DNA of 64,000 nt from an uncultured Pseudomonadota bacterium (lineage in GTDB: Bacteria; Myxococcota_A; Polyangia; Fen-1088). The notes beneath the pieces were generated by a model, which was not told the DNA's origin, searched no databases, and saw only the letters and a list, made by a program, of their open reading frames with translations. Position 1 is the stretch's first letter. Each line of letters begins with the position of its first letter. Shown here in pieces: positions 873-20,182 of the stretch. The stretch spans positions 32,001 to 96,000 of the forward strand of contig CAWKBC010000035.1 in NCBI GenBank assembly GCA_963847705.1, in the 5' to 3' direction. Position numbers and translations under genes: made by a program.

Positions 873-874
873 TC

Positions 875-3347: not shown

Positions 3348-3350
3348 CTC

Positions 3351-5249
3351 ATGTGTGGGATCGCCGGCATCGTCGCCAATCCGGGGGGCGGGCTCCCGGA
3401 CCAGACAATCGGACAGGCGATGACCGACGCCATCACCCACCGCGGCCCCGACGACGACGGGATCTACCGCGACGACCAGGCGATGCTGGGCGTGCGCCGT
3501 CTGTCGATCATCGATCTGCTCGGCGGCCACCAGCCGGCGCACAACGAGGACGGCTCCGTGCAGGCGGTCTGCAACGGCGAGATCTACAACTACCGCGAGC
3601 TGCGCGGCGAGCTCGAGGCGCAGGGACACCGCTTCCACACCCGCTCCGACACCGAGGTGATCGTCCATGCCTATGAAGAATGGGGCGACGATGCCTTCGC
3701 GCACCTGGAAGGCATGTTCGGAATCGCGCTGTGGGACAGGCGCGCGCGCGCGCTGGTCCTGGCCCGCGACCGCTTCGGCGAAAAGCCCCTCTTCTACAGT
3801 CTGCAGCCTGGAGAGACGGGAGACAGGGGAGGTCGGCTGCTCTTCGCCAGCGAGCTCAAGTCGCTGCTGGTGGTCCCTGGGTTCAAGCGCGAGATCGACC
3901 CCGCGGCGGTTCGTTCCTACCTCTGTTTCGGCTACGTCCCCATGCCGGGCAGCATCTTCCGAGACGTCCACAAGCTGCCGCCGGGTCATTCGCTCCGTTT
4001 CGTCGACGGGCGGCTCGAGCTGCGGCGCTACTACCACCTCGAGCTCGAGCCCAAGCACGCGCTCGACGAACACGAGGCCGAGGAACAGCTGGCCACCCTG
4101 CTCGACCAGGCGGTGAAGAGCCGCCTGGTCTCGGACGTTCCGTTCGGCGCCTTCTTGAGCGGCGGGCTCGACTCGAGCGTGGTGGTTGCGCTCATGGCGC
4201 GTCACCTCCAGGCGCCGGTGCAGACGTTCTCCCTCGGTTTCCGCGAGTCCCACTACAATGAGCTGTCCGATGCGCGTCGCGTGGCGAGTCACCTCGAGAC
4301 CGAGCACCACGAGCTGATCGTCAAACCCAACGCGGTCGAGCTCCTCGAGCAGCTGGTCTGGTATCTCGACGAGCCTTTCGCCGATTCGTCGGCGGTGCCG
4401 ACCTACCTGGCGGCCAAGCTCGCGCGCCAGCACGTCAAGATGGTGCTCACCGGCGACGGAGGCGATGAGGCGTTCGCCGGCTACGGCCGCTACCTCCGTT
4501 TCTTGGCGCTGGAGCGGGCGGGGTCCCTCCGGCCGGCGGCCGCCGCTGCGGTGAGGTTCGCGGGGCGATGCGTTCCCGGATCGCGGGGCTATCGCCTGCA
4601 GCGCATCGCGGAGCGCCTCCGGCTGGAGTTCCCCGAGAGCTACCTCTCGGGCGTGGCGCTGACCCGCGCCGACGTCGCCGATCACATCTTGGGCGACGCC
4701 GTCCGCGCCGACGGCGGGGGGCACTACGGCGGGCTCGCCGAGGTGGCCAGGGCGTTCTCCTCTCTTCACCCTCTCGATCGCTGCGTCTCGATCGACTTTG
4801 CCAGCTATCTGCCGGACGACATCCTGGTGAAGTTGGATCGCATGACGATGGCGAACTCGCTCGAAGGACGTGCGCCGTTCCTGAGCCATCACCTGGTGGA
4901 GTTCGCGGTCCGACTCCCCGATACGCTGCGCGTCCGCGACGGACGAGGCAAACATCTGCTCCGCCGCACGGCGGCCCGGTGGCTTCCGCCCGAGGTGCTG
5001 AACAAACCCAAGCAGGGTTTCGCGATCCCGCTCGGACAGTGGTTTCGAGGCCCCTTGGCCGCGCTGGCGGGGGACCTCTTTGCCAGTCGGGCGTTTCGCG
5101 ATCGCGGCCTGCTGCAGCCGGAGGCGGCGCGCCGCTATCTCGACGGTCACCTGCGCGGCGACGCCGATCATGGCGAGCTGCTCTGGTCGATGGTCTCGCT
5201 CGAGCTCTGGGCGCGGCGCTATCTCGACGCCGGGTCGAGTCCGACATAA
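3351..5249 (+). CDS. asnB: Asparagine synthase (glutamine-hydrolysing), EPS-associated amidotransferase
   Basis: MCGIAG N-terminal Cys, HRGPD, NGEIYN, LSGGLDSS, GDGGDE, KQGF. Confidence 0.93.
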   Translation: MCGIAGIVANPGGGLPDQTIGQAMTDAITHRGPDDDGIYRDDQAMLGVRRLSIIDLLGGHQPAHNEDGSVQAVCNGEIYNYRELRGELEAQGHRFHTRSDTEVIVHAYEEWGDDAFAHLEGMFGIALWDRRARALVLARDRFGEKPLFYSLQPGETGDRGGRLLFASELKSLLVVPGFKREIDPAAVRSYLCFGYVPMPGSIFRDVHKLPPGHSLRFVDGRLELRRYYHLELEPKHALDEHEAEEQLATLLDQAVKSRLVSDVPFGAFLSGGLDSSVVVALMARHLQAPVQTFSLGFRESHYNELSDARRVASHLETEHHELIVKPNAVELLEQLVWYLDEPFADSSAVPTYLAAKLARQHVKMVLTGDGGDEAFAGYGRYLRFLALERAGSLRPAAAAAVRFAGRCVPGSRGYRLQRIAERLRLEFPESYLSGVALTRADVADHILGDAVRADGGGHYGGLAEVARAFSSLHPLDRCVSIDFASYLPDDILVKLDRMTMANSLEGRAPFLSHHLVEFAVRLPDTLRVRDGRGKHLLRRTAARWLPPEVLNKPKQGFAIPLGQWFRGPLAALAGDLFASRAFRDRGLLQPEAARRYLDGHLRGDADHGELLWSMVSLELWARRYLDAGSSPT

Positions 5250-5269: not shown

Positions 5270-5545
5270 ATGGGGATCGACGGAAAATCACTGTCAGAGA
5301 AGGTCACGCGCCTGGTGTTGGAGTACGCACAGACGCCCCCGCCCGAGGCGTCAGCGGGTGCGCCGCTCGATGGAAAGCTGACCTTGCGCGGAGATCTCGC
5401 CGTCGACTCGCTGGCCCTCGTCTCGCTGACGATTCGGCTGGGAGAGGAGCTGGGGGTCGACGTCGTCGAGAGTGGTCTCGATTTCAGTCAACTGGAGACG
5501 ATGGGAGATCTCTTGGCCGTCGCCGAGAAACTCAATCGCCATTGA
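5270..5545 (+). CDS. Acyl/peptidyl carrier protein (91 aa)
   Basis: AGGAG RBS at 5261, ATG 5270; DLAVDSL phosphopantetheine-site motif; acidic helical C-terminus ETMGDL. Confidence 0.85.
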   Translation: MGIDGKSLSEKVTRLVLEYAQTPPPEASAGAPLDGKLTLRGDLAVDSLALVSLTIRLGEELGVDVVESGLDFSQLETMGDLLAVAEKLNRH

Positions 5546-5657
5546 CCGTTTGCGCGTCCTGACCGCCCTCTCCCCCGTCGCACTCAACCTGCCGTAATTG
5601 CTGTTTAATGTCCGGACGTCGGACCCGGAAACCTGGCGTGGCCGTGAAAATCTCCGA

Positions 5658-5687
5658 TTGACCGGGGAGGCCAAAGAATGGTACGAG
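5658..5687 (+). promoter_or_regulatory. Putative sigma70-type promoter of peptide gene 1
   Basis: TTGACC followed 17-18 nt later by a weak TG-GTACGA -10 element in an AT-richer intergenic gap. Confidence 0.3.
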
Positions 5688-5745
5688 TATGTGCTGGCAG
5701 GTGGTTGTTCAGAGGTCAGCAAACTCGAAGGGGACCAGAGAAATC

Positions 5746-5907
5746 ATGGACGCGAACAAAGACACGGTGACCGAGGGCAGCGAGAAGATCGGCCGGAACT
5801 CTGATGTGGCACCAGTCGCGGGAAACGCCGCCGACGAGGGTGAGTTCAAGATCGAGATCCGAAAGCTGGAAGTCCCGGTCCGCCCGCGCGGCGTCCTGGC
5901 TGAATAG
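5746..5907 (+). CDS. Putative RiPP-type precursor peptide 1 (53 aa, MDANK...EFKIEIRKLEVPVRPRGVLAE)
   Basis: Purine-rich RBS-like region before the ATG; last 21 aa identical to 10640-10795 with only synonymous DNA differences. Confidence 0.8.
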   Translation: MDANKDTVTEGSEKIGRNSDVAPVAGNAADEGEFKIEIRKLEVPVRPRGVLAE

Positions 5908-5919
5908 GCTCGCCTCAGC

Positions 5920-5949
5920 GCCGCGCCGGCGCAAGGGCGCGGCAAAAAA
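5920..5949. terminator. Stem-loop after peptide gene 1 (mRNA-stabilising hairpin or minus-strand terminator)
   Basis: GCCGCGCC-N8-GGCGCGGC followed by A6. Confidence 0.5.
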
Positions 5950-5964
5950 TCGAATGAGGGTTGG

Positions 5965-7905
5965 ATGACCGCGACGAACCTCGCGAAGGCGCCGGTTTAC
6001 TTTGGGACACCCGAGCGGCCTCTGTTCGGGTTCTACCACCCTCCCGCTGGCTCCCGGGTGCGCGGGACGGCGGTGTTGCTCTGCAATCCGCTGGGAGATG
6101 ATCTGATCCGCGCGCATCGTCCCTTCCGGCACCTGGCCGAGGATCTGTCTGCCGCGGGATTCCCCGTCCTTCGGTTCGACTTCGACGGGACGGGAGACTC
6201 GTCGGGAGACGAGCGGGATCCGAATCGCGTGGCCACCTGGCGCGCCGACGTCGGCCGCGCCGCGGCCGACTTGCGCGCGCGCAGCGGCGTGGAGCCGCTG
6301 GCCCTGGTCGGTCTCAGACTGGGGGGAACGTTTGCTGCGTTGGGCGCGGCGGATCTGGGCGGCGTCGACGCGCTCGTTCTGTGGGGCGCTTACGACAACG
6401 GCGGCGCGTTCGTTTCGGAGGCCACGAAAGCTCACAAGATGCACGTGATGCTGCAGCCGACCAGCTTCTCCGGTGGACCGCCGGCCAGCGACGGGCAAGA
6501 GGCGCTCGGCTTCCTGCTGGCGACGCAGACGATCGCCGATCTCGAGGCGATCGATCTCCTGTCGCTGCCCCGCTCGCCCGCCAGACGGACGCTGGTCCTC
6601 GACACCGCGAACGTCGAAACCGACAGCCCGCTGGTGGCGAAGCTGCGGGAGCTGGGTGGGGCGGTCACCCACCGTCACATCCCGGGCAACAAGTTCTTGA
6701 TCATCTCACCCCACCAGTCGGAGGTCCCCACGGCGGCCCTTTCGGCGATCACGGGTTGGCTTTCCGAGGAGTGCCCGTTCGCCGACCGCAGCTCGGCGAC
6801 CAGCGCGATGGCCGGTTCGGCGACCAGCGCGATGGCCGGTTCGGCGACCAGCGCCATGGCCGGTTCGGCGACCAGCGCCATGCCCGGCGTGGCGACCAGC
6901 GCGAGGCCCGGCCAGGCGTCCAACGACGCGAAGACGCCCCCGGCATGGGACGCGGCCCGCACGGTGAACAACCTGCGCGAGCGCCCCGTGTTCTTCGGGG
7001 GGCCTCGAAAACTGTTCGGGATCCTCACGGTGCCGCCGTCGAGCACCGCCCGACCCGATCTTCCGGCCATCATCCTGCTCAACGCCGGCACCGTTCATCG
7101 GGTGGGCTCGCACCGGCTCTACGTGCCGATGGCGCGCAAGTGGGCGGCGCTCGGGTTCCACGTGCTCCGCGTCGATCTCTCGGGGATTGGCGACAGCCCG
7201 GTTCCCGAGGGTCACCCCGAGAACCTCACCTACCCGCGCGAGGGCCTCGAGGACGCACGCGCCGCGATGGACTTCCTCGAGGACACCACGACGAGCGGGA
7301 AGTTCGTCGTCGCCGGTCTCTGTTCGGGCGGCGACATCGCCTTCCAGCTGGGGTTCAAGGAGCCGCGCGTGGCGAGCGCCATCATGATGAACCCGCGCAC
7401 TTTCTTGGTGAACGACCTGAGCATGGTCGATTCGTACGAACGGGCGCGCTGGTCCCAGCAGGCCGTGGCCCACAGCGACTCCTGGAAGGATCTTCTGAGC
7501 GGTGACGTGAACCTCACCCGCGCGTTCAAGCTGGCTGCACCGAAGGTGAAGGACCTGGTCGTGAGGCGTGCGAAACGAGCCATCACGGACCTCATGGGCG
7601 CCGTGCTCCCCAACGCGCCGGCCACCGAACAGCGTCGGGAGACCGACGTTCCCTACTGCCTCCGGTCGATGGCCGAACGCGGGGTCGACACCTACCTGTT
7701 CGTCACCGAGCACGACCCCGGCGTCGACTACGTCGATGCGAACTACGGACCGGCCATGAGCGCGCTCGCGTCGATCCCCAACTTCCGTCGAACCGACGTC
7801 AAGGGGACCGACCACACCTTCACCGCGCGCTGGGCACAGGAGCAGGTCAGCGCGATGATCACCGAGCACCTGACGCGACGATTCTTGGCGGCCCGGGCCG
7901 CGTAA
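5965..7905 (+). CDS. Fused tandem alpha/beta-hydrolase (Hydrolase_4-like), probable acyltransferase
   Basis: Two domains, each with a (F/V)D..G.GDS motif; nucleophile elbows GLRLGG and GLCSGG; C-terminal DHTF. Confidence 0.8.
   Translation: MTATNLAKAPVYFGTPERPLFGFYHPPAGSRVRGTAVLLCNPLGDDLIRAHRPFRHLAEDLSAAGFPVLRFDFDGTGDSSGDERDPNRVATWRADVGRAAADLRARSGVEPLALVGLRLGGTFAALGAADLGGVDALVLWGAYDNGGAFVSEATKAHKMHVMLQPTSFSGGPPASDGQEALGFLLATQTIADLEAIDLLSLPRSPARRTLVLDTANVETDSPLVAKLRELGGAVTHRHIPGNKFLIISPHQSEVPTAALSAITGWLSEECPFADRSSATSAMAGSATSAMAGSATSAMAGSATSAMPGVATSARPGQASNDAKTPPAWDAARTVNNLRERPVFFGGPRKLFGILTVPPSSTARPDLPAIILLNAGTVHRVGSHRLYVPMARKWAALGFHVLRVDLSGIGDSPVPEGHPENLTYPREGLEDARAAMDFLEDTTTSGKFVVAGLCSGGDIAFQLGFKEPRVASAIMMNPRTFLVNDLSMVDSYERARWSQQAVAHSDSWKDLLSGDVNLTRAFKLAAPKVKDLVVRRAKRAITDLMGAVLPNAPATEQRRETDVPYCLRSMAERGVDTYLFVTEHDPGVDYVDANYGPAMSALASIPNFRRTDVKGTDHTFTARWAQEQVSAMITEHLTRRFLAARAA
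6793..6903 (+). repeat. Coding 24-bp tandem repeat (SATSAMAG, about 4.5 copies) in the inter-domain linker
   Basis: TCGGCGACCAGCGC(G/C)ATGGCCGGT repeated. Confidence 0.9.
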
Positions 7906-8909
7906 TGGCCTTCAAGGCGCAAGCTGCGCTCGTCAAGGCGGGACCCCTCGAGCCGTTCGAATACGAGCCGCAGGAGCTGGGCGCGACGGACGTCGAGATC
8001 GAGATCTCGCACTGCGGCCTCTGCCACAGCGACATCCACCTGATCGACGACGGCTGGGGGCGCAGCAAGTACCCGCTGGTCCCGGGCCACGAGATCGCCG
8101 GGACTGTCGCGGCCGCAGGCTCGGCCGTCACTCACCTCACCGTCGGCCAGCGGGTCGGCGTCGGCTGGCAGCGAAGCGCTTGCCTGGAGTGCGATCTCTG
8201 CCTGGGCGGCGAAGAGAACCTGTGTCGCAAGCAGCAGGCGACCTGCATGGGCCATCACGGCGGCGTGGCCAACCGGATTCGCCTCGACGGCCGGTTCGCC
8301 TTCGCGCTGCCCGAGACGATGGACAGCGCCGTGGCCGCGCCGCTCCTCTGTGGCGGCGTCACCGTCTTCGCGCCGATGCGGCGCTTCGGGATCGGCGCCA
8401 CCAGCAGCGTGGCGGTGATCGGGATCGGCGGCCTCGGGCACATGGCGCTGCTGATGCTGCGCGCGCTCGGCTGCGAAACGACCGCCTTTTCGACCTCCGC
8501 CGCGAAGAAGGACGAAGCGCTGGCGATGGGAGCTGACCACTTTGCCTCCTCGACCGATCCGAGCGACATCCGTAAACACTTCGGCCGCTTCGATCTGGTG
8601 CTGTCGACCGTTCACGCCCGGCTCGACTGGACCACCTATCTCCAGACGCTGAGGGCCAACGGGACGCTCTGCCTGCTGGGGATGCCGCCGGGTGTCATTC
8701 AATTCCCGCCCGCCCTGCTGGTGACCGGCCAGCGCTCGATCACGGGCAGCGACATCGGCAGCCGGAAGGTCATTCGGGAGATGCTCGCCTTCGCGGCGCG
8801 CCACAAGGTGGCCCCGCAGATCGAGCGGATGCCGATGGCCGAGGCCAACGCGGCCTTGACGCGGCTGCGGCAGAACCAGGTGCGGTACCGCGTCGTCCTG
8901 GAGAATTAG
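7905..8909 (+). CDS. Zn-dependent alcohol dehydrogenase / aldehyde reductase (Ahr/CAD-like)
   Basis: CHSD, GHE, CxxCxxC-x7-C, GIGGLG. Confidence 0.92.
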   Translation: MAFKAQAALVKAGPLEPFEYEPQELGATDVEIEISHCGLCHSDIHLIDDGWGRSKYPLVPGHEIAGTVAAAGSAVTHLTVGQRVGVGWQRSACLECDLCLGGEENLCRKQQATCMGHHGGVANRIRLDGRFAFALPETMDSAVAAPLLCGGVTVFAPMRRFGIGATSSVAVIGIGGLGHMALLMLRALGCETTAFSTSAAKKDEALAMGADHFASSTDPSDIRKHFGRFDLVLSTVHARLDWTTYLQTLRANGTLCLLGMPPGVIQFPPALLVTGQRSITGSDIGSRKVIREMLAFAARHKVAPQIERMPMAEANAALTRLRQNQVRYRVVLEN

Positions 8910-8972
8910 ACGTCGGGCGGCCGCCCGGTGGTGGGCGGGGCACGACTCGCGTAGATTCTCGCTTCCGGGAGC

Positions 8973-10560
8973 ATGGAAATGAACGTTCAACTCTTCGACA
9001 GCACGTTGCGTGACGGCACGCAGAGCGAGGGTCTCTCCCTCTCCGTGGAGGACAAGCTCAAGATCTCGCGCCTGCTGGACGGCTTCGGCATCCACTACAT
9101 CGAGGGGGGCTACCCCGGGTCGAACCCGAAGGACGTCGAGTTCTTCCAGCGCGCCAAGTCGGTCACCTTCCGCCACGCCAAGCTGACCGCATTCGGGATG
9201 ACCCGCAAGCCGGGCGGGCGCGCCGACAGCGATCCGATCCTGGCGGCGATGGTGGCCGCCGAGACCCCCGCGGTCGCCGTGGTCGGAAAGACCTGGACGT
9301 TGCACGTCACCAAGATCGTCGGCACCACGCTGGAAGAGAACCTGGCGATGGTCGCGGACAGCGTCGCCTTCCTCAAGCAGAAGGGGCGCGAGGTGGTGTT
9401 CGACTGCGAGCACTTCTTCGACGGCTTCCGCGCCGATCCCGACTACGCGCTGGCGGTGGTCAAGGCCGCCTCGGCGGCGGGGGCCGACTGGATCGCCATG
9501 TGCGACACCAACGGCGGCAGCCTGCCGGGGACGATCACCGAGGTGGTTGGCGCGGTCAAACGGGCGGTCCTCACCCCGCTCGGGATTCACACCCACAATG
9601 ACTGCGACGTGGCGGTGGCCAACGCCTTCGCCGGGATCGAGGCCGGCTGTACCCAGGTGCAGGGGACGATGAACGGCTGGGGCGAGCGGTGCGGGAACGC
9701 CAATTTGATCTCGGTCATCGCCGGGCTGCAACTGAAGATGGGCCGGCGCTGCGTGCCGGAGGAGAACCTGGCCCGCCTCACCGAGCTCTCGCGGGCGGTC
9801 AGCGAGATCGCCAACATTCGCCCGCGCGCGCACGCCCCCTACGTGGGTCACTCGGCGTTCGCGCACAAAGGGGGGATGCACGTCGCCGCGGTGGAGAAGA
9901 TCCCCGCCAGCTACGAGCACATCGTCCCCGAGCGGGTCGGCAATCGGCGCCACATCGTCGTCTCGGAGCTGTCGGGGCGCGGCAACGTCCGCATGCGCGC
10001 CGGGGAGCTGGGAATCGACGTGCAAGGGAACGAAAAGCGCGTCCTCGAGCACATCAAGGAGCTGGAGAGCCAGGGCTACCAGTTCGAGGCGGCCGAGGGG
10101 TCGTTCGAGCTGCTCGGGCGACGCAGCCAGCCAAGCTACGTGGCCCCCTTCGACGTCCTCGACCTGGTCGTCATCTCGGAGCGGCGCCGCGGCAACTCGA
10201 TGTTCGCCGAGGCGACCGTGAAGCTGAAGATCGGCAACGAGAATCGTCCACGAGGTCGCGGAGGGGTCCGGGCCGGTGCACGCGCTCGACGGGGCCTTCC
10301 ACAAGGCGTTGAACCCTCACTTTCCGACGCTGCGCGACGTTCGCCTGGCCGACTACAAGGTTCGAATCCTAGATCCTGACGCGGCGACCAGCGCCAAGAC
10401 GCGCGTCCTCATCGAGGCGGCGCGCGGCGAGGAGCGCTGGAGCACCATCGGCGTGTCGCAGAACATCATCGAGGCCAGCGCCACAGCCCTGGCGGACGCT
10501 CTGGAGTTGCCGCTGGCCCGCCTCGCCTCCGCCCGGATTCCCGAGAGTGCCGCCGGCTGA
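8973..10560 (+). CDS. cimA: Citramalate synthase-like (LeuA/CimA family); +1 frameshift near 10242
   Basis: DSTLRDGTQ, IEGGYPGSNPKD, HTHND, GERCGN, AHKGGMH; removing one A at 10242-10243 joins the C-terminal domain (GPVHALD, DYKVRIL, TRVLIE, NIIEAS). Confidence 0.85.
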
Positions 10561-10639
10561 ATGCGCGGTTCCGGGGAAGAAAATGGTCAGCACTCCGTTG
10601 GTTGATTGGTTAGAATTCCAATACCACGGGGGAGCTCAA

Positions 10640-10795
10640 ATGGACGCCAACAAGAACCAGACCACCGACACCAAAGACACCATCATCCCGACCGACGGCG
10701 CGCCAGCGCCCGCGACCGGAGATGACGCCGAGTTCAAGATCGAGATCCGGAAGCTGGAAGTTCCGGTCCGCCCGCGCGGCGTCCTGGCAGAATAG
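10640..10795 (+). CDS. Putative RiPP-type precursor peptide 2 (51 aa, MDANK...EFKIEIRKLEVPVRPRGVLAE)
   Basis: GGGGGAG RBS, upstream TAGAAT (10611-10616); paralog of 5746-5907. Confidence 0.82.
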   Translation: MDANKNQTTDTKDTIIPTDGAPAPATGDDAEFKIEIRKLEVPVRPRGVLAE

Positions 10796-10809
10796 TCGCC
10801 TCGATCTCA

Positions 10810-10834
10810 CGCGGGATCCTCAAGGGATCCCGCG
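10810..10834. terminator. 10-bp stem hairpin between convergent genes (REP-like family member)
   Basis: CGCGGGATCC-TCAAG-GGATCCCGCG. Confidence 0.65.
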
Positions 10835-10849
10835 CCCTCGCAACACGCG

Positions 10850-12538
10850 TCAGTCCGCGCGCTCGATCCGGAGTGCTCCGCGGGAATTTCGAAACGGGGC
10901 GAACGCAGCGTGAAGCTTGCGCCGCTGGATCTTGCCGGTGTGCGTGCGGGGAATCGGCGTCGTGCCGTAGAGAATGATCTTGGGGCGCGCGTCGAGCGGC
11001 ATCTCGCCCACCACCTTGGTGAGGCGGGCGCGCAGCTCGTCGGCGAGCTCTTCATTCTCGAGGTAGAGGCCGATCTCCTCGCCGTGAACGTCGTGCGGAA
11101 ATCCGAGCGCGACCAGCCGGCCCTCGATCTCCGGCAGCTCGGTCACGATCCGCCGCTCGATCGCCAAAGGGCTGAACTTGTCGCCGTCCCGGATGATCGT
11201 CTCCTTGATCCGTCCGGTGATGAAGAACGCCGGCCCGCCCGCCGAGGCTTGGGGCTCGCCGGCTTGCTGTCCGCCTGCGGAGGCGAGGGGCCCGCCCGCG
11301 GAGCCTCGAGGCTGGCCTGCCTGCTGAAAGAAACCCTCGTCGCCCGTCCGCAGCCAGCCGTCTGCCCCGAGCGTCGCCGCCGTCGCGCCTTCATCACGAA
11401 AGTAAGACAGCATGGTGCTGTGGCCGCGCACGCACAGCTCGCCGCGCTGGTCGGCCGGCAGCGTCGCCCCATCGGCGCCGACGACCTTCACCTCGGTCCC
11501 CGGCAGCGGGCTCCCGATGCAGGTCAGCTCTCCGCCGTAAAGGAGCCGCCGTCGTTCATCCTCGGCCAGATCGGCCGGAAGGCAGCAGGCGAAGTTGGTG
11601 TACTCGGACAGCCCCCAACCTTGCAGCAGACGGAGGTTGGTCTTCTCCTCGAAGGCGCGGGCCAGACTCACGGTCAGGGGCGCCGACGAGACGAGAACTG
11701 CGCGCAGCGTCGGGAGCTTCTCGGCGCGGACGCCGAGCTGCAGGAGAGGCTGCAGCAGCGTCGGGACCACGCTGGTCAAGGTGACCGACTCGACCCGGAG
11801 GACCTCGCCCCAGGCGAACGGATCGAACCGCTCCATGAAGACGAGGTGCCCGCCGGTGGTCAGCGTGGTCATCAGGCCGAACCCCAGCGCGTGCGCGTGG
11901 TAGAGCGGCAGCACCGCCAGCTGCGTCTCGTCCTCGAAGCGAAAATTGAGCGCCATGCTCCAGGCGTTGGCGAGCAGGCTCCCTTGCCCCAGCGCGACGC
12001 CTTTGGGATTCCCGGTGGTCCCGGAGGTGTAAAGGACGATCGCCATCTGCTTCTCCAGCGACCTCGCGGCCGCGGGCGCCGCCGCCGCGGGAGGCGGTGA
12101 CGCGCCGCCGCCGCCGGCATCGGGCACCGTCTCGTCCTCGAAGGCACAGACGACGGCGGGACGGGCCACCAGCCAATCGAGCAGCTCACGCGCGCCGAAG
12201 ACGAGACGCGCCTCCGAGTGCGCCAGGATGTAGTCCCAGTCCGCGGGCGGCGTCGTTGGATTGAGCGGGACGACGGCGGCGCCGAGCTGCATGGCTGCCA
12301 GAAAGAGCGCTGGGACCTCCAGCCGATTGGGCGAGAGGACCGCGACGCAATCTCCCTGCCGCACGCCGAGCTCGTCCCTCAGCCGGCGCGTGAATCGCTC
12401 GACAGCGCCGAGCAGCTCCCCGTAGGTCCAGTGCCCCGCGCGTGTCTTGCCTTTGTAAAAGGTGAGCGCCGGCCGTCCCGCAGGGAGGCGGGCGAGACCG
12501 TCCAGCAGGGCGGGGATGTCCTCGAAGCGTGTCGTCAT
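10850..12538 (-). CDS. AMP-dependent acyl-CoA/acyl-ACP ligase (ANL superfamily)
   Basis: YTSGTTGNPKG, GWGLSE, RTGD, GRIKE, PRTHTGKIQR. Confidence 0.92.
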   Translation of the reverse strand: MTTRFEDIPALLDGLARLPAGRPALTFYKGKTRAGHWTYGELLGAVERFTRRLRDELGVRQGDCVAVLSPNRLEVPALFLAAMQLGAAVVPLNPTTPPADWDYILAHSEARLVFGARELLDWLVARPAVVCAFEDETVPDAGGGGASPPPAAAAPAAARSLEKQMAIVLYTSGTTGNPKGVALGQGSLLANAWSMALNFRFEDETQLAVLPLYHAHALGFGLMTTLTTGGHLVFMERFDPFAWGEVLRVESVTLTSVVPTLLQPLLQLGVRAEKLPTLRAVLVSSAPLTVSLARAFEEKTNLRLLQGWGLSEYTNFACCLPADLAEDERRRLLYGGELTCIGSPLPGTEVKVVGADGATLPADQRGELCVRGHSTMLSYFRDEGATAATLGADGWLRTGDEGFFQQAGQPRGSAGGPLASAGGQQAGEPQASAGGPAFFITGRIKETIIRDGDKFSPLAIERRIVTELPEIEGRLVALGFPHDVHGEEIGLYLENEELADELRARLTKVVGEMPLDARPKIILYGTTPIPRTHTGKIQRRKLHAAFAPFRNSRGALRIERAD

Positions 12539-13137
12539 CGTCTCATCACCGCGCGGGCCCGAACGCGTAGGCGTAGGAGGCCTGAATCCGCTCCGAGAGG
12601 ACGCTCAGAATCCTCCATCGAGTTTCTCCAGTCGATGTCGGGCGCCGCCTCTTCCAGCGTGGTGACGCCGAAGTAGAGCGGTTGGAAGCCCATCTTGACG
12701 TAGGCCTTGGCGTAGTCGGCGGCGACGGCCATCTCGTCGTCGAACACGGCCGCCCGGTGGCCGAGGCCAGGATAGTTGGACTTGGCGAACAATCCGACCT
12801 TACCGGCGTCGTTCCAGTGCAGCGCCACGCAGTGGCCGCACTCCTCGCCCGACACGGGATCGATGCGATGGATGGCCAGGAGGCGCCGTTTGACGTCGCC
12901 GAAGAGAAGCTCCAGCAGCCCGTAGGCGAGGATGGCGGAGTCGATGCAGGTGATCTTGGGGGCGTGCAGGGACGACCGGACCGACTGCACGCGGTAAGCG
13001 GTCCGCCAGTCCTCCAGATAGCCGATTCCGTCCAGCACGCGCCGGATGTCCTCTGGCGACTCGAACGGCCCGCCGCCGCCGAGCTCCCGAATGCGGCGGA
13101 ACTCGGCCTCTCCGTACGTGAGCGGCCCTGAGGACAA
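12535..13137 (-). CDS. Transglutaminase/papain-like Cys-His protein, possible peptidase; probable +1 error near 12609 (corrected stop at 12546)
   Basis: CIDSAILA...GHCVALHW...AKSNYPGL; tightly linked to the HDO and ligase genes. Confidence 0.55.
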   Translation of the reverse strand: MSSGPLTYGEAEFRRIRELGGGGPFESPEDIRRVLDGIGYLEDWRTAYRVQSVRSSLHAPKITCIDSAILAYGLLELLFGDVKRRLLAIHRIDPVSGEECGHCVALHWNDAGKVGLFAKSNYPGLGHRAAVFDDEMAVAADYAKAYVKMGFQPLYFGVTTLEEAAPDIDWRNSMEDSERPLGADSGLLRLRVRARAVMRR

Positions 13138-13146
13138 GCCCGCGGC

Positions 13147-14145
13147 CTACTCGGAGAGCAGATCGCTCGGCGCGCGCGGCATGGTCGGGAAGCGGGCGTA
13201 GAAGGTGTCGATTCCGTCCATGAAGAGATAGAGGTGCTCGGCCATCGAGCGGACGATGTTGAGCGCGTCGTCCACCTCGGCCCGCGTGAGCGGCGGAATG
13301 CTCTGGCACATCTCCAGGAAGACGTTCTCGTGCCCGAGCTTCTGGTCGGCGTTGGTGTGCGCGATGAAGGAGTCGATCACCTTGTCGGTGTACGGGTAGT
13401 GCTTGCGCATCGCCGCGTAGAAGTCGTCGATCGAGCTGGCGTCCTTGTCGTCGCCGGTGTTCTCGGTCATCTGCAGGAGCTCGTTCCCGGCGTAGTAGCC
13501 GAACGAGTTGCGCCCGGCCGACTCGCTGAGGAAGTTCACCAGCGCGCGCGTGCTCGGCAGCGGCTGCGCCCGCAGCACGGTGTCGTCCGGGAAGAGGCTG
13601 CGCAGCCCCTTGCGGTAGATGTCGCCGTGGTTGTACTCCTCGATGAAGTGCCGCGCGAGGTGCGGCATCATCTCGGGCGTGGCGTTGGCGGCCGCGATGG
13701 CCATGTGCTCGAACGCCCCCTCGATGTAGTGGTACTTCTCGAAGGCGAACCCCAGCACCTGCGCGCGCGAAGCCTTGCCGGTCACGATCTTCTCCCACAG
13801 CGGGTGGTCGTAGATCGGCTGCAGCCAGTGGGTCACGTACTTGCGGTGGATCTCGTAGAACTGCTCGCCGGAGATCCGCTCACCGTCGTCGTCCTTGAAC
13901 GCCAGCACGCCGGTCTGACCGAGCTGCTGCGAGAGCGACTGGACCCGCTTGGGTGACTCCGCGATCCGCTCGGCGATGCTCCCCACGCCGGTGGAGCCGT
14001 CGAGATAAGGCAGCATCTTGTCGAGCAGCCGCGCGGCCGCCCCCTCGAGCAAGACCTCTTGACCCATGTACTCGATGGCCAGCTTGTCGGCGTCACGTCG
14101 CACGACCTTGGCCGTGCGCTTCAGAACAGGTAATTGCGTCTGCAT
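13147..14145 (-). CDS. Heme-oxygenase-like diiron oxidase (PqqC/TenA/CADD fold) with N-terminal RRE-like domain
   Basis: HPLW, EKYHY, HFIEEYNH, GNE, HTNADQKLGH ligand pattern; about 85-aa N-terminal beta/wHTH-like extension. Confidence 0.75.
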   Translation of the reverse strand: MQTQLPVLKRTAKVVRRDADKLAIEYMGQEVLLEGAAARLLDKMLPYLDGSTGVGSIAERIAESPKRVQSLSQQLGQTGVLAFKDDDGERISGEQFYEIHRKYVTHWLQPIYDHPLWEKIVTGKASRAQVLGFAFEKYHYIEGAFEHMAIAAANATPEMMPHLARHFIEEYNHGDIYRKGLRSLFPDDTVLRAQPLPSTRALVNFLSESAGRNSFGYYAGNELLQMTENTGDDKDASSIDDFYAAMRKHYPYTDKVIDSFIAHTNADQKLGHENVFLEMCQSIPPLTRAEVDDALNIVRSMAEHLYLFMDGIDTFYARFPTMPRAPSDLLSE

Positions 14146-14157
14146 GGGGTCCCCTTA

Positions 14158-15153
14158 CTAATCGAGCAACTTGCTGAACTTCGGCCGCGGCATCGGGTTC
14201 GACTCGACGCCGTAGTACTTCTCGATGCTGTCCGTCCAGAGCCAGATGTGCTCGATGAGCTGGTGGCCGTACTCGAGGACGCGCCCGGCGCGCGTAGCCG
14301 GGATCTCCTTGACGGTGCTGAGGATGTCGAGGAACAGATCGGAGTGCTGGTACTGCACGTCCAGGTCGAGGTGCGCGTAGATGGGCGCGATTGACTCCGG
14401 CGGCAGCTTGTAAAGCTCGGCGCACTTTTCGTAGTACGGGTTGTAGGCGCCGCGGTTGACGGTGGTCCCCTCGAGAACTGCCGAGCAGATCGAGTAGGCG
14501 AGGATGTCTTCACGGGCGGCCTGGCGCATGAAGTTCGACAGCGCCAGCGACATGGGAAGCGGGACCGAGTTGATCACGCTCTCCTCGCTGAAGCCGAGCG
14601 CCTTGAGCGCCTTGAGGAAGTAGTGGTAGTGGTTCCACTCCTCCGCGTAGTGCTTGGCGCGCATGTTCTTGATCGACTTCTCCTTGGTGTGAGCACAGGA
14701 GAGCGGCATGTGGCGGTTGGCGTTCCGCGTGTAGTGATAGAGCTCGATGAGCCACCCCGAGTACATGCGGCGCGAGCCGTTCCCGCTGGTCATCCGCTCC
14801 CAGAACGGATGCGAGAACGCCTCGTCGAGCCAGCTCGGCAAGATCTTGTTGAAGAGCGTGTGGAGCTCGACGCCGCTCAACGTCGCCGGAACCGCGTCCT
14901 GGCGATAGAGGAGACCGGCGCTCTCCAGCGCCTTCGTCAGCCGGCCGAGGCGCGCCTCGTCCATCCCCAGATCGGCCGCGATCTCCTTCTGCGACTGGAC
15001 GCTCGGAACCCGCTCCGCCAACTTTTCGTAAAGGGCAAACTCACGGTTGCCGAGCTGGACCTCGCGGTCGCTCAGTCTGACGGATACGCTGTCCCCCTTC
15101 GGAGCCGCCTCATAGACTCTCCGAACCCCAAATTCTTGACCCATGGTTGCCAT
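14158..15153 (-). CDS. Heme-oxygenase-like diiron oxidase (PqqC/TenA/CADD fold) with N-terminal RRE-like domain
   Basis: HPFW, ELYHY, HYAEEWNH, LEG, HLDLDVQYQH; N-terminal IAADLGMDEARLGRLTKALESAGLL wHTH-like segment. Confidence 0.75.
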   Translation of the reverse strand: MATMGQEFGVRRVYEAAPKGDSVSVRLSDREVQLGNREFALYEKLAERVPSVQSQKEIAADLGMDEARLGRLTKALESAGLLYRQDAVPATLSGVELHTLFNKILPSWLDEAFSHPFWERMTSGNGSRRMYSGWLIELYHYTRNANRHMPLSCAHTKEKSIKNMRAKHYAEEWNHYHYFLKALKALGFSEESVINSVPLPMSLALSNFMRQAAREDILAYSICSAVLEGTTVNRGAYNPYYEKCAELYKLPPESIAPIYAHLDLDVQYQHSDLFLDILSTVKEIPATRAGRVLEYGHQLIEHIWLWTDSIEKYYGVESNPMPRPKFSKLLD

Positions 15154-15159
15154 CTCTAA

Positions 15160-15189
15160 ACGTTACAGCATCGGCAGAATTCCGGTCAA
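15160..15189 (-). promoter_or_regulatory. Putative promoter of the HDO operon
   Basis: Minus-strand TTGACC-N18-TAACGT; the same TTGACCGG occurs upstream of peptide gene 1. Confidence 0.3.
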
Positions 15190-15207
15190 CCTGTGGAGAA
15201 GCGGAAT

Positions 15208-15807
15208 TCATCGAACAATTTTGAGGCGGGACTCCAAATCCCTCTTCACCTCCGGCCACTCCGCATCGAGGATGCTGTAATAGACCGAATCTCGAACCCT
15301 CCCGCTGGACGTGATCATGTGACTGCGCAGAGTGCCCTCTTCCCGGGCGCCGATTCGGCGGATGGCGGCGCGGGAGCGCTCGTTCAGGGCGTCGGTCTTG
15401 AGCTCGACGCGAATGCAGCCGAGAGTCTCGAAAGCATGCTGCAAAAGCAGGTACTTAGCCTCGGTATTGGCGGCGGTGCGCTGCCAGGCTCGCCCGAGCC
15501 AGGTCCAGCCGATCTCGACCCGGCGGTGCGCCGGTTCGATGGCGGCAAATCGGGTGCTGCCGATGGCCTGGCCGGTCGCCCTGTCGATGACGGCGAAGGG
15601 AAGGGCCCGGCCCGCCGTCCTCTCGGCGAGGGCGAACGTGATGTAGGCACCCATGTCGGCGGCCGTCTGGACCGGTTTGGGGGCCCATTGCCACAGAGCG
15701 GCATCCAGCCCGACGGCGCAAAGCGCCCCGTGGTGGGCCTCGGCGAGCGGCTCCAGCCGAATCCGCGCCCCCTCGAGCGTCGTCGCTGTCAACCCGGTCT
15801 CCTTCAT
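15208..15807 (-). CDS. GNAT N-acetyltransferase (RimJ/RimL family)
   Basis: LEGARIRLEPL, EIGWTW, NTEAKYLLL, RVELKTD..NERS; GGGAGG RBS. Confidence 0.9.
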   Translation of the reverse strand: MKETGLTATTLEGARIRLEPLAEAHHGALCAVGLDAALWQWAPKPVQTAADMGAYITFALAERTAGRALPFAVIDRATGQAIGSTRFAAIEPAHRRVEIGWTWLGRAWQRTAANTEAKYLLLQHAFETLGCIRVELKTDALNERSRAAIRRIGAREEGTLRSHMITSSGRVRDSVYYSILDAEWPEVKRDLESRLKIVR

Positions 15808-15840
15808 GCGAGCCTCCCTTTTTAACAGCTCATGCCATCC

Positions 15841-17364
15841 ATGAGATCCACCATCACCTCCCTCGGGCATTCCGGGCTGGACATCCGTCTTGGATCCGCC
15901 CGGATCGTCTGCGACCCCTGGCTCTCCCAGCGTGGCGCCTACCTCGCCAGCTGGCACCAGTTTCCCCGCAACGATCACCTGGTGGCGAGCGATCTGCACG
16001 ACACCCCGAACCTCTTCATCAGCAGCCCCCGTCCGGATCACTTCGACGTCGAGACGTTGCGCGGATTCCCCAGGACCGTGCGCGTCATCCTTCCCAGGCT
16101 GGCCTCCCCCACGCTGGCCCAGCAGGTGCGTGCGCTCGGGTTCAGCCAGGTCCTGGAGCTCGGCGATGGCGAGCCGGTCGACCTCGGGGAGGGCGCGCGG
16201 CTTTTTCTGTTGGCCTCGCGGGCCCAGCACCTCCTGGGCGCCGCGCTGGTGATCGAACGCGAGGGCCAGGTGATCGTCGATCAAAACGACTGCCCGCTGG
16301 ATGATGCGGCGCTCGACCGGATCGCGGCGTTGAAGCCGGCCGTCCACCTCCTTCAGTTCTCGGGCGCCTCTTACTTCCCCGCGGTCTACGACTTCTCGCC
16401 GGAGCGAATGAAGACGGAGGTCGAACGGGAGGTCGCTGTCATCGCGCGGCGTTTCTTCGACACGGCCACGCGGGCCGGCGCGCGCCACGTCGTCCCCTCG
16501 GGGGGCCCCCCCTGCTTCGTCGACGAACGCGGGTTCGAGCTGAACTTCGGGGGGAGCATCTTCTTCGACGCCGACGAGCTCCTGGCGCGCGCCGCGCGCG
16601 AGGCGCCGCAGCTCCGCGACCGGCTGCACCCCCTCTATCCCGGAGACGTCGCCGCGCGCGACGGCGGAGACTGGAGCTTCGCCGGCCACAGACCGTATGA
16701 CGACAAGCGCAGCTACCTCGCTGCCCACCGCGACCTGCGGGGCCCGGTGCGCCAGAGCTACCTGACCGAGCGGCGCGCGGAGGCGGAGCCGGTCGACAGC
16801 AAGGACTTCCGATCTTACTTGCGCGATTTCTTCCAGTTCGAGGACATGACCGCGGACCTGAGAACCATCATTCAGTTTCGCCTCACCGACGGGCCGTCGG
16901 TCTGGATCGACTTTCGAAAAAAGCCGTACCGCTACCTGACGGAGTGCGAGGAGCCGGCCGCTCACGTCCTGACCCTGGAGAGCGCCTGGGTGAGCCTGGT
17001 GTTGCAGGGGAAGCTGACCTGGCACGAGCTTCTGATGAGCCGGGAGGTGACCATCACGCGCGATCCCGATCGCGAGGTCCCCAAGCTGATGCAACACTTC
17101 GACTACCGTCACGACGAGGCGCTGTTCGATCTGGTGCGGCTCCTCGATCCCGCGCTCATCACGGTGCAGGACGAGCAGATGGAGTACGTCTGCCAGCGCT
17201 TCTGTCCTCATCGCGGGCGCGACCTCGAGTACGCGGTCATCGAGCGCGGCGTGCTCACCTGCACCGCCCACGGCTGGCGGTTCGATCTCCGAAAGGGGGG
17301 GCGCTGCCTCTGGGGCGGTGAGACGCCGCTGCTGGTGAAAGAGATTCGCCCGCTCAGCCGGTAG
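15841..17364 (+). CDS. MBL-fold protein with C-terminal Rieske domain (CMP-Neu5Ac hydroxylase-like)
   Basis: GHSG, CDPW, degenerate SSPRPDH; Rieske CPH...CTAHGWRF. Confidence 0.75.
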   Translation: MRSTITSLGHSGLDIRLGSARIVCDPWLSQRGAYLASWHQFPRNDHLVASDLHDTPNLFISSPRPDHFDVETLRGFPRTVRVILPRLASPTLAQQVRALGFSQVLELGDGEPVDLGEGARLFLLASRAQHLLGAALVIEREGQVIVDQNDCPLDDAALDRIAALKPAVHLLQFSGASYFPAVYDFSPERMKTEVEREVAVIARRFFDTATRAGARHVVPSGGPPCFVDERGFELNFGGSIFFDADELLARAAREAPQLRDRLHPLYPGDVAARDGGDWSFAGHRPYDDKRSYLAAHRDLRGPVRQSYLTERRAEAEPVDSKDFRSYLRDFFQFEDMTADLRTIIQFRLTDGPSVWIDFRKKPYRYLTECEEPAAHVLTLESAWVSLVLQGKLTWHELLMSREVTITRDPDREVPKLMQHFDYRHDEALFDLVRLLDPALITVQDEQMEYVCQRFCPHRGRDLEYAVIERGVLTCTAHGWRFDLRKGGRCLWGGETPLLVKEIRPLSR

Positions 17365-17471: not shown

Positions 17472-18377
17472 GTGACGTCGACCAGACCGTCCCGGCTGAA
17501 GGCAGCCCTGAAGGTGATCCGGCTGCACCAGTGGTCGAAGAACGCGCTGGTCGTGGTGCCCTTGCTCCTGGCGCCGCACGGCCTGTCGTCGATCCAGGTG
17601 GCGCACGCGGCGCTGGCGGCGCTGGCGCTCAGCCTGTGCGCCTCCGCCGGCTACGTCTTCAACGACCTCATGGACGTGGCGGCCGATCGCGCCCATCCCA
17701 CCAAGAACCGGCGGCCGTTCGCCTCCGGCGCGCTCCCGACCAGCTATGGTCCGCCGCTCATCCTCGGGCTCCTGGCGGTCAGCGTGGCCATCTCGCTTTA
17801 TGCCCTGCCGAAGTCGTTCTTCGCGATGCTGGTGCTCTACTTCGCTATCACGCTCAGCTACTCGTTCTACCTGAAGAGCCTGCTGCTGATCGACGTCATC
17901 GTCCTGGCCTGGCTCTACACCCAGCGCGTGCTGGCGGGGGGATTCGCCACCGGCGTCTCCATCAGCGCCTGGTTGCTGGCCTTCTCGATGTTCATCTTCC
18001 TGAGCCTGGCTTTTGCGAAACGCCACATCGAGCTGCGCCACGCCCTCGATGAGTCCGGGAAGCTGCGCAGCCGCGGCTACTACGCGCAAGATCTGAGCAT
18101 GGTCGTTTCGATGGGAACCACCGCCGGCTACCTGGCCGTGCTGGTGTTCTGCCTCTACATCGAGAGCAGCGCGGGGAACGTCATCTATTCACAGCCGAGG
18201 ATCCTCTGGCTGATCAGTCCGGTGTTGCTCTACTGGATCAGCCGCGTCTGGTTCCTGACCCATCGCGGGGAGATGCACGACGACCCCGTGAAGTTCGCTC
18301 TCACCGACCGCCGGAGCTGGCTCTGCGCGCTGGCCGTGGGCGCCATCGCGATCGCCGCCCGCTTCTGGCCGGCGTAG
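17472..18377 (+). CDS. UbiA-family prenyltransferase / polyprenyl-phosphate phosphoribosyltransferase
   Basis: RLHQWSKN, YVFNDLMD..ADRAHPTK.RRPFASG, DDPV. Confidence 0.88.
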   Translation: MTSTRPSRLKAALKVIRLHQWSKNALVVVPLLLAPHGLSSIQVAHAALAALALSLCASAGYVFNDLMDVAADRAHPTKNRRPFASGALPTSYGPPLILGLLAVSVAISLYALPKSFFAMLVLYFAITLSYSFYLKSLLLIDVIVLAWLYTQRVLAGGFATGVSISAWLLAFSMFIFLSLAFAKRHIELRHALDESGKLRSRGYYAQDLSMVVSMGTTAGYLAVLVFCLYIESSAGNVIYSQPRILWLISPVLLYWISRVWFLTHRGEMHDDPVKFALTDRRSWLCALAVGAIAIAARFWPA

Positions 18378-18381
18378 AGTG

Positions 18382-18490
18382 TGGGACCCTGGGAGGGTCC
18401 CACGCCCCCCGCGATGGCTCGCGCGAGCAAAGCTCGCGGTCCCCCTGCGCGATCAGCTCGGGTCCCTCCGAGGGTCCCGCGCCCCCCGCG
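18382..18490. repeat. REP-like palindromic element (two units) between convergent genes
   Basis: GGGACCC-N5-GGGTCCC-ACGCCCCCCGCG and GGGTCCCTCCGAGGGTCCCGCGCCCCCCGCG; similar to 59380-59412. Confidence 0.65.
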
Positions 18491-18491
18491 C

Positions 18492-20045: not shown

Positions 20046-20182
20046 CCCCACGGATCGATCATGGGAATGACGACGCTGGAGAGCGGCGCACGCACGTGGC
20101 CAGGGCACAATAGCAGACAAACGGGCGGCTCCCGCCGAACCTGAGGCGTGGGCGCTGAGCTTCTCGTCCTTATCTTTGCCGC

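What the first reader, a model, noticed from the sequence alone, without database searches (positions are those of the whole stretch)
5270..17364. Candidate undescribed peptide-guided (RiPP-like) diiron-oxidase pathway embedded in an exopolysaccharide locus
Seen: two short paralogous peptide genes; a minus-strand operon of HDO-HDO-transglutaminase-like-AMP ligase converging on peptide 2; and ACP, double alpha/beta hydrolase, ADH and CimA-like genes around peptide 1. The block is flanked by GT4s, deacetylase and AsnB on one side and UbiA and flippase on the other. Known: RRE domains bring RiPP enzymes to leader peptides; HDO-fold enzymes (PqqC, CADD, BesC, UndA, SznF) do oxidative chemistry; ligase-ACP-hydrolase sets occur in EPS loci. 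Inference: the peptide C-terminus (...PRGVLAE) is oxidised and released, and the product is either a new RiPP or a small acyl unit loaded on the ACP and transferred to the glycan. I do not recognise this gene combination as a characterised pathway.
Basis: partly seen in the sequence, partly recalled or inferred. Interest (0 to 1): 0.92.

Follow-up and report, generated by a model that had tools for sequence, protein, structure and literature searches.

The report
Peptide-fed iron-oxidase acyl-donor pathway
Soil myxobacteria carry a tightly co-inherited gene set (a short peptide with a fixed tail, two iron oxidases built with peptide-gripping domains, a protease, a reductase, a ligase, a carrier protein and a transferase-like hydrolase) that likely cuts a small oxidised acid out of the peptide and likely attaches it to surface sugars, which would be a new route from a ribosomal peptide to a cell-surface decoration.

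Summary
Observation confirmed, with corrections. Both peptides exist and end PRGVLAE. In 26 same-genus genomes the peptide, oxidase pair, double hydrolase and ADH occur in the same 12 and not in the other 14. All 25 peptide-bearing GTDB genomes hold the oxidase pair. The HDO_B model has an N-terminal RRE fold (PbtF, Z 11.5) on an HDO fold (CADD, Z 19.1). The Cys protein is a CPR-C4/vasohibin-type protease. CimA (26 of 26), GNAT, UbiA and flippase are the chromosomal landing site, not pathway genes. The last residue switches E/D/DG with no tracking enzyme change, so the target probably lies in invariant PRGVLA. Best model (0.5): the oxidases modify the peptide; protease and ADH free a small acid; the ligase loads the ACP; a Cys-nucleophile hydrolase or starter-type NRPS passes it on, usually in glycan loci. 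No description found in ten paper searches; closest are VarO, PQQ/PqqCD and pearlins. The scan noted the oxidase pair and peptide before on another genome (e1-4452381).

The parts
69..5249 (+). Polysaccharide deacetylase, two GT4 glycosyltransferases, AsnB-type amidotransferase: glycan genes that came in with the cassette in this lineage (accessory; likely make the acceptor)
   Evidence: Pfam/NCBIfam; absent from the empty site in G436, G417, G403, where cimA is followed directly by the small gene that precedes the deacetylase here; AsnB/GT4 also beside the cassette in L028, L029, L038, L047
5270..5545 (+). Acyl carrier protein (core)
   Evidence: PF00550 E 0.002; homologue in 20 of 25 peptide loci; (D/E)S(L/F)xxxSL motif kept
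5746..5907 (+). Peptide 1, 53 aa, variable acidic N-terminus, conserved 21-residue tail ending PRGVLAE (core)
5965..7905 (+). Fused hydrolase-2 / hydrolase-1-like protein; N-domain GLRLG (no nucleophile), C-domain GLCSG with Cys at the nucleophile elbow and a C-terminal DH(T/S)F; likely thioester acyltransferase (core)
   Evidence: TIGR03101 and TIGR03100, both below cut-off; motifs; 12 of 26 genomes, the same as the oxidases
7905..8909 (+). Zn-dependent Ahr-like aldehyde reductase (core)
   Evidence: NF047908 417.8 bits, cut-off 470; 12 of 26 genomes, the same set
8973..10560 (+). cimA citramalate synthase, one-base slip near 10242; housekeeping landing site, not a pathway gene
   Evidence: TIGR00977 above cut-off; 26 of 26 genomes, one copy each
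10640..10795 (+). Peptide 2, 51 aa, same conserved tail (core; the duplication is lineage-specific)
10850..12538 (-). Adenylate-forming (ANL) ligase; best solved match oxalate-CoA ligase (core)
   Evidence: PF00501; 5ie0 E 2.6e-61, next hits within two orders of magnitude; far below TIGR03098 cut-off
12546..13137 (-). CPR-C4/vasohibin-type cysteine protease, Cys64-His102-Leu125; one-base slip near 12609 (core)
   Evidence: profile hit to CPR-C4 7pjo/7ob6, E 4e-10; residues invariant in 18 of 18; triad definition in PMC9108980
13147..14145 (-). HDO_B: RRE (residues 1-85) fused to a heme-oxygenase-like domain; E170, H173, H263, D267, H272 invariant, Gln225 where CADD has a Glu ligand (core)
   Evidence: model pLDDT 93.7; fold matches 8t19 PbtF Z 11.5, 3h5a MccB Z 9.2, 5v1u TbiB1 Z 9.0, 3dde Z 21.1, 8va9 CADD Z 19.1
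14158..15153 (-). HDO_A: paralogous RRE-like + HDO protein with a full His3/carboxylate3 set (E172, H175, E228, H261, D265, H270) (core)
   Evidence: profile-profile match to HDO_B over 316 columns, 99.9%; five residues in 43 of 43, E228 in 41 of 43; not folded
15208..15807 (-). RimJ/RimL-type GNAT; landing-site gene
   Evidence: PF13302; present next to cimA in 2 of 5 cassette-less genomes tested
15832..17364 (+). Metallo-beta-lactamase / SCP2 / Rieske protein; genus-specific accessory
   Evidence: 11 of the 12 cassette genomes, 0 of the 14 others; not found in 10 of 10 distant cassette genomes
17472..20267 (.). UbiA-family gene (+) and flippase (-): flank, also present where the cassette is missing
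   Evidence: L205, L206

Best explanation
The peptide is likely a sacrificial precursor: the two RRE-bearing iron oxidases likely grip its conserved tail and oxidise a residue inside the invariant PRGVLA stretch, the protease and reductase likely free a small modified acid, the ligase would load it on the carrier protein, and the Cys-hydrolase would pass it to a surface polysaccharide. Shown: gene content, co-inheritance, RRE and HDO folds of HDO_B, ligand and triad residues, glycan-gene neighbourhood. Inferred: binding through the strand EF(K/R)xxI(R/K)KLE; every chemical step; the acceptor. I favour side-chain desaturation plus an oxidative cut that leaves a carbonyl for the ADH. The residue is open: Arg of Pro-Arg (about 0.35, by the VarO and MboA precedents), Val/Leu (0.35), the terminal acid (0.15), Gly/Ala/backbone (0.15). 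In some genomes a starter-type NRPS would take the unit instead of, or after, the hydrolase.
For: Peptide, oxidase pair, hydrolase and ADH in the same 12 of 26 genus genomes, with close cassette-less relatives showing an empty site. Oxidase pair in 25 of 25 peptide genomes. In 30 metagenome loci of 12 kb or more: protease 29, ligase 28, ADH 23, ACP 20, hydrolase 20, peptide 20. RRE fold. Protease triad. No transporter among the core genes. Glycan-type gene in 14 of 20 GTDB loci (2 by self-hit only) and 10 of 18 metagenome loci against 203 of 4951 background windows. Second hydrolase paralogues occur in 7 of 12 cassette genomes and 0 of 14 others and sit with an ACP among GT2/GT4/Wzy/flippase genes. 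A C-A-T-TE NRPS whose C domain best matches 7c1k and CDA synthetase I (starter C domains, recalled) occurs in 5 of 12 and 0 of 14 and lies directly beside HDO_A in L204. The hydrolase-less locus L211 has a two-module NRPS instead.
Against: No biochemical data. 6 of 20 GTDB and 8 of 18 metagenome loci show no glycan-type gene with my queries; those queries came partly from the loci, the background is one genome, and the loci are kin. Ligase-ACP-hydrolase sets exist in XrtA loci without any peptide (TIGR03098/03100/03101), so the ligase could use an acid from ordinary metabolism. Freeing an internal residue needs two cuts and only one protease is present. The ligase match to oxalate-CoA ligase is barely better than to aromatic and fatty acyl-CoA ligases. 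Distant RRE-HDO relatives on five plasmid loci have no such peptide and other neighbours. The 12 cassette genomes are related, and the genomes are 68-95% complete.
Confidence: 0.5

Rival explanations
1. The product is a free acylated RiPP: the oxidases modify the tail, the protease removes the leader, and ligase, ACP and hydrolase add an acyl group from ordinary metabolism to the peptide.
For: RRE, protease and a strictly conserved core are the normal RiPP layout; needs only one cut; VarO leaves a modified tripeptide.
Against: No exporter in the core; core sequence does not diversify (160 of 173 peptides end VRPRGVLAE), which fits a fixed metabolite better than a bioactive peptide (inference); extra ACP-hydrolase and NRPS modules elsewhere in the genome track the cassette; glycan enrichment.
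Confidence: 0.25
2. The cassette makes a small diffusible metabolite from the peptide; the ACP is a transient handle, the hydrolase releases the product, and the glycan neighbourhood reflects where such islands insert.
For: Several loci have no glycan gene (L027, L034, L036, L040, L041, L049); PQQ and mycofactocin work this way (recalled); the L211 locus has an NRPS with a thioesterase.
Against: The hydrolase families are defined from exopolysaccharide loci; paralogous ACP-hydrolase pairs sit inside glycan loci; CelD-type GNATs, Wzy and Wzz recur beside the cassette in unrelated chromosomal contexts.
Confidence: 0.13
3. The peptide is a reusable carrier: a substrate is tethered to its acidic end (as on LysW-type amino-group carriers, recalled), oxidised there, and released by the transglutaminase-fold enzyme acting as an isopeptidase.
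For: An acidic side chain is kept at that position in all 55 loci typed (E 43, DG 8, D 4); the N-terminus is acidic and variable; the Cys protein has transglutaminase-family features.
Against: No ATP-grasp or PEARL enzyme in the core; one ligase would have to serve both peptide and ACP; E/D/DG switches occur with near-identical HDO_A (L106 versus L107).
Confidence: 0.12

Closest known systems
Thiovarsolin pathway, VarO (PMC6511847 / 10.1101/494286; passages read)
   Same: Heme-oxygenase-like protein tied to a ribosomal peptide; puts a C-beta/C-gamma double bond in the Arg of an (A/G)PR unit; our invariant core also holds Pro-Arg.
   Different: Single enzyme known from genetics only, with YcaO-TfuA and a repeating precursor; no ACP, ligase, hydrolase or protease. 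The passages read mention no RRE in VarO. I could not compare sequences.
PQQ pathway, including the natural PqqCD fusion (PDB 5vrd, Z 16.5)
   Same: Small conserved peptide, RRE, HO-fold oxidase; a small molecule is cut out of the peptide (recalled).
   Different: PqqC is metal-free (review) and acts late on a free intermediate (recalled); no radical SAM PqqE here; peptide lacks ExxxY; two RRE-HDO paralogues with metal ligands; ACP branch.
Pearlins / scaffold-peptide pathways (Ting et al. 2019; seen only as a reference title, content recalled)
   Same: A ribosomal peptide serves as a handle for making an amino-acid-derived small molecule.
   Different: No PEARL ligase among the core genes; oxidases are HDO-fold; product appears routed to an ACP.
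MboA, CADD, BesC, UndA, FlcD/E, HrmI and other HDOs (PMC13108848, PMC13185094; first sixth of each text plus passages)
   Same: Fold and His3/carboxylate3 pattern; MboA desaturates the C-terminal residue of a Leu-Ala-X tripeptide.
   Different: 10-20% identity in the structural alignments; none of those read has an RRE; last His is shifted by two residues; the B paralogue has Gln at one Glu site (24 of 35).
XrtA/PEP-CTERM exopolysaccharide ligase-ACP-hydrolase 1/2 set (TIGR03098, 03100, 03101, 03108)
   Same: Ligase, ACP, both hydrolases and AsnB in a glycan locus.
   Different: All four score below cut-off; hydrolases are fused; the upstream supply is a peptide-oxidase unit rather than the PLP decarboxylase (recalled).
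CPR-C4 and vasohibins (PMC9108980, passages)
   Same: Cys-His-Leu(carbonyl) protease; vasohibins clip a C-terminal residue.
   Different: CPR-C4 has no known substrate; this locus offers a candidate substrate for a bacterial member of the family.

Membership tests
RRE-dependent RiPP-type pathway | Small gene-encoded peptide with a conserved region next to the enzymes | tested here: met
RRE-dependent RiPP-type pathway | RRE fold (three strands, three helices) on the enzyme | tested here: met
   HDO_B model, (PbtF Z 11.5, rmsd 2.7, 84 of 86 aligned); HDO_A only by homology
RRE-dependent RiPP-type pathway | The RRE binds the peptide and the peptide is modified | not testable with these tools
   needs experiment; no complex prediction could be run
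HDO superfamily | Heme-oxygenase-like helical fold | tested here: met
   (3dde Z 21.1, CADD Z 19.1); Pfam PF14518 and PF03070 above cut-off
HDO superfamily | Three His and three carboxylate ligands | tested here: inconclusive
   HDO_A has all six by alignment; HDO_B has five plus Gln225, with extra invariant E136/H139; geometry and metal not examined
PQQ biosynthesis | PqqC family membership, ExxxY peptide, radical SAM PqqE | tested here: not met
   no TIGR02111 hit for the window proteins, weak in 4 of 43 distant members; no Tyr in the peptide tail; no radical SAM gene among the 21 window proteins scanned
Thiovarsolin-type (VarO) pathway | YcaO-TfuA pair and repeating APR/GPR precursor | tested here: not met
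   neither among the window genes; peptide has one Pro-Arg-Gly unit
Thiovarsolin-type (VarO) pathway | Sequence kinship of the oxidases to VarO | not testable with these tools
   no VarO sequence obtained; supplement search found no VarO entry in a file cut when stored
Pearlins | PEARL (LanB-like) aminoacyl-tRNA ligase | tested here: not met
   none among the window proteins scanned; the whole genome was not searched for it
XrtA/PEP-CTERM ligase-hydrolase set | Scores above the cut-offs of TIGR03098, 03100, 03101, 03108 | tested here: not met
   130/592, 122/168, 99/203, 627/817 bits
CPR-C4/vasohibin proteases | Homology and Cys-His-Leu(carbonyl) triad | tested here: met
   (sequence level; no model could be folded)
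CPR-C4/vasohibin proteases | Carboxypeptidase specificity | not testable with these tools
   needs assay; the position matching the vasohibin carboxylate-binding Arg (numbering recalled) is Asn/Ser here

The most novel reading that the evidence does not exclude
A ribosomal peptide is sacrificed to make an unusual (unsaturated, alkynyl or hydroxy) acyl unit through a pair of RRE-guided dimetal oxidases, and that unit is loaded on a carrier protein and distributed to glycan acyltransferases and starter NRPS modules across the genome: a direct bridge from RiPP chemistry to thiotemplate chemistry and cell-surface decoration, and the first view into a family of several hundred RRE-HDO enzymes.
Probability: 0.4. 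Interest if true: 0.93.

Novelty: categorically new. Interest (0 to 1): 0.82.

Why it matters
Only about a dozen HDOs are characterised, and the 2026 review cites one paper (thiovarsolin) for peptide modification. This locus gives a defined 21-residue substrate candidate for an RRE-fused HDO pair from a family of 677 representatives, so the chemistry is directly testable by co-expression. It also offers a candidate substrate for a bacterial vasohibin-like protease, and a candidate cargo for the long-unexplained ligase-ACP-hydrolase sets of exopolysaccharide loci. The rating 'categorically new' rests on the combination, which failed every family test run; if the product is a free peptide it would instead be a new RiPP class.

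Tried and rejected
CimA as a pathway enzyme: rejected, 26 of 26. GNAT as self-resistance or tailoring: rejected as core, it marks the empty site. MBL-Rieske as the required redox partner: not found in 10 of 10 distant cassette genomes (no positive control in those calls, genomes incomplete), so accessory. Terminal Glu as the product: disfavoured; E/D/DG switches recur on the HDO_A tree and no position tracked them across lineages (only 3-4 D and 8 DG rows). One hit (G417) was dropped because the codon after it is Trp, not a stop; three duplicate loci (L042, L050, L053) were dropped. A draw of 400 phylum genomes had no HDO_A match, and 16 other-genus relatives none: the cassette is patchy. Promoter scan: 0 sites against 0.8 expected; terminators 7 against 6.1, uninformative. 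Sequence-only RRE tests were weak (PbtF E 0.02, mixed with generic winged helices). Three RNA-library runs hold contigs of relatives over the oxidases and peptide ends, but shares were 0.05-0.07 and contigs cannot show transcription, so not used. Paper searches that found no description: motif, 0 papers; 0; listings only; main texts of two RRE surveys have no heme-oxygenase term; their supplements were not searched and may list such fusions; subscription papers are not in the library.


Full report
What is there. The two peptides lie at 5746-5907 and 10640-10795 and share their last 21 residues. Family scans give deacetylase, two GT4, AsnB, ACP, a fused hydrolase-2/hydrolase-1 protein, an Ahr-like ADH, CimA, an AMP ligase, a protein without family, two PF14518/PF03070 proteins, a GNAT, an MBL-SCP2-Rieske protein, UbiA and a flippase. 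Close homologues are labelled Polyangia, so the host is probably a myxobacterium. cimA and the Cys gene each have a one-base insertion that three contigs of relatives lack.

The peptide family. 109 homologues keep E-x7-L-x2-P-x2-P-R-G-V-L-A in 109 of 109 while the N-terminal 30 residues vary freely; a profile finds 1029 clusters (best 120 seen). Loci found through the oxidase, without using the peptide, add ends in D and DG and a Q before PRG; PRGVLA never changed.

Co-inheritance. A DNA pattern for the tail found 28 loci in GTDB genomes, 25 after removing duplicates, nearly all Myxococcota-labelled or unclassified, one labelled Dormibacteria (the pattern cannot see DG ends). The oxidase pair lies in the locus in 18 of 25 and elsewhere in the genome in the other 7. 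In 26 genomes of the genus, oxidases are in 12, the peptide in the same 12 (after dropping one hit not followed by a stop), the double hydrolase in the same 12 and the ADH in the same 12. These sets overlap the 25 above and are kin, so they are not independent counts; but genomes with 89-94% identical CimA lack all four, which points to joint loss or gain. Among 30 metagenome loci of 12 kb or more, HDO_B is in 30, protease 29, ligase 28, ADH 23, ACP 20, hydrolase 20, peptide 20, PaiB 15, CimA 7 (misses were not checked one by one against contig ends). A draw of 400 phylum genomes had none.

What is not part of it. CimA is single-copy in 26 of 26. In two cassette-less genomes the order is flippase-UbiA-GNAT-cimA-small gene: an empty site. 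The deacetylase, GT4s and AsnB are missing there, so in this lineage they arrived with the cassette. The Rieske protein follows the cassette in the genus (11 of 12, 0 of 14) but was not found in 10 distant cassette genomes.

The oxidases. HDO_A and HDO_B are paralogues over their full length. The HDO_B model (pLDDT 93.7) has three strands and three helices at the N-terminus that match the RREs of PbtF (Z 11.5, rmsd 2.7, 84 aligned), MccB (9.2) and TbiB1 (9.0), and a C-terminal domain matching 3dde (21.1), CADD (19.1), PqqC, HrmI, UndA, FlcD and BesC. HDO_A keeps six candidate ligands in 41-43 of 43 sequences; B-type proteins keep five and mostly have Gln at CADD's middle Glu (24 of 35), plus invariant E136 and H139. 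A profile search found 677 representatives, among them A-B fusions, which suggests the two work as a unit. Five distant plasmid members sit with MFS, EamA, GNAT or aminotransferase genes and no such peptide, so the wider family serves other pathways.

The downstream enzymes. The Cys protein matches CPR-C4 (E 4e-10), a protease with the vasohibin Cys-His-Leu triad (passages); the three residues are invariant in 18 of 18. The ligase's best solved match is oxalate-CoA ligase, by a small margin. The hydrolase has Arg at the first nucleophile elbow and Cys at the second, the layout expected of a thioester acyltransferase (inference from alpha/beta-hydrolase knowledge).

Where the product goes. Glycan-type genes lie in 14 of 20 GTDB loci and 10 of 18 metagenome loci against 4.1% of background windows (queries partly from the loci, two self-hits, one background genome). 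Second hydrolase paralogues occur only in cassette genomes (7 of 12, 0 of 14), paired with an ACP amid GT2, GT4, Wzy and flippase genes, including G000:C30. Five of them adjoin a C-A-T-TE NRPS that is likewise confined to cassette genomes and whose C domain best matches 7c1k and CDA synthetase I (starter role recalled). The Dormibacteria-labelled locus lacks the hydrolase and has a two-module NRPS. Against this, 6 of 20 and 8 of 18 loci show no glycan gene.

Which residue. Ends in E (43 loci), DG (8) and D (4) alternate several times on the HDO_A tree; L106 (E) and L107 (DG) have near-identical HDO_A, and no enzyme position tracked the change. The last residue is therefore more likely a handle than the product. 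VarO desaturates the Arg of (A/G)PR and MboA makes an alkyne on Leu-Ala-citrulline, which makes the Pro-Arg a lead, not a result.

Mechanism and rivals. I put 0.5 on a peptide-derived acid loaded on the ACP and passed to a glycan or NRPS, 0.25 on a free acylated RiPP, 0.13 on a diffusible metabolite and 0.12 on a reusable carrier peptide. Gene content, folds and neighbourhoods are shown; binding and all chemistry are inferred.

Literature. Ten searches showed no description. Seen: first sixth plus passages of PMC13108848; first sixth of PMC13185094; passages of 10.1101/494286, PMC6511847 (and one truncated supplement), PMC9108980 and PMC12186529; zero-hit term searches in the main texts of PMC12710340 and PMC7470986, whose supplements I did not search. 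PQQ, mycofactocin, pearlin and LysW details are recalled.

Verdict. A real, strongly co-inherited and apparently undescribed peptide-oxidase-carrier cassette. Interest 0.82.

Noticed in passing
G000:C30:120000-134900: Second double hydrolase (41% identical) with an ACP, two hexapeptide-repeat transferases, GT4s, Wzy-like and flippase-like genes; no oxidases or peptide.
   Followed up: partly
L200-L204 (for example L204:7394-13745): GT2 + double hydrolase + ACP + single-module C-A-T-TE NRPS, found only in cassette genomes (5 of 12); A-domain specificity not examined.
   Followed up: partly
L211:9692-18215: Dormibacteria-labelled contig: cassette without hydrolase, beside a C-A-T-C-A-T-TE NRPS and a 326-aa protein of no Pfam family.
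   Followed up: partly
L026:15469-16071 and 15 of 30 large metagenome loci: PaiB-like gene (PF04299) divergent from HDO_A in the distant clade; G000 has one elsewhere. Landing site or partner is undecided.
   Followed up: no
L026:16365-17336, L052, L096, L106, L122, L130, L132: A roughly 325-aa protein without Pfam family recurs beside the cassette.
   Followed up: no
P0236, P0239, P0242, P0247, P0250, P0269 and others: Natural fusions of the A and B oxidases, 570-716 aa; neighbourhoods not obtained.
   Followed up: no
L071:7776-13944 (Robbsia andropogonis plasmid): Three consecutive HDO-like genes with an aminotransferase, EamA transporter and GNAT; no PRGVLA peptide; looks like a separate amino-acid-metabolite cluster.
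   Followed up: no
L055:9594-10822 (Rhizobium etli plasmid); L070, L054, L072: Lone or paired distant RRE-HDO relatives; in L055 a 67-aa ORF directly upstream is a candidate precursor of another type.
   Followed up: no
window 6800-6950 and 11255-11325: Low-complexity insertions in the hydrolase linker (a repeated AMAGSATS unit) and in the ligase that contigs of relatives skip.
   Followed up: partly
window 10242 and 12609: One-base insertions that shift the frames of cimA and the protease gene; relatives are intact.
   Followed up: yes
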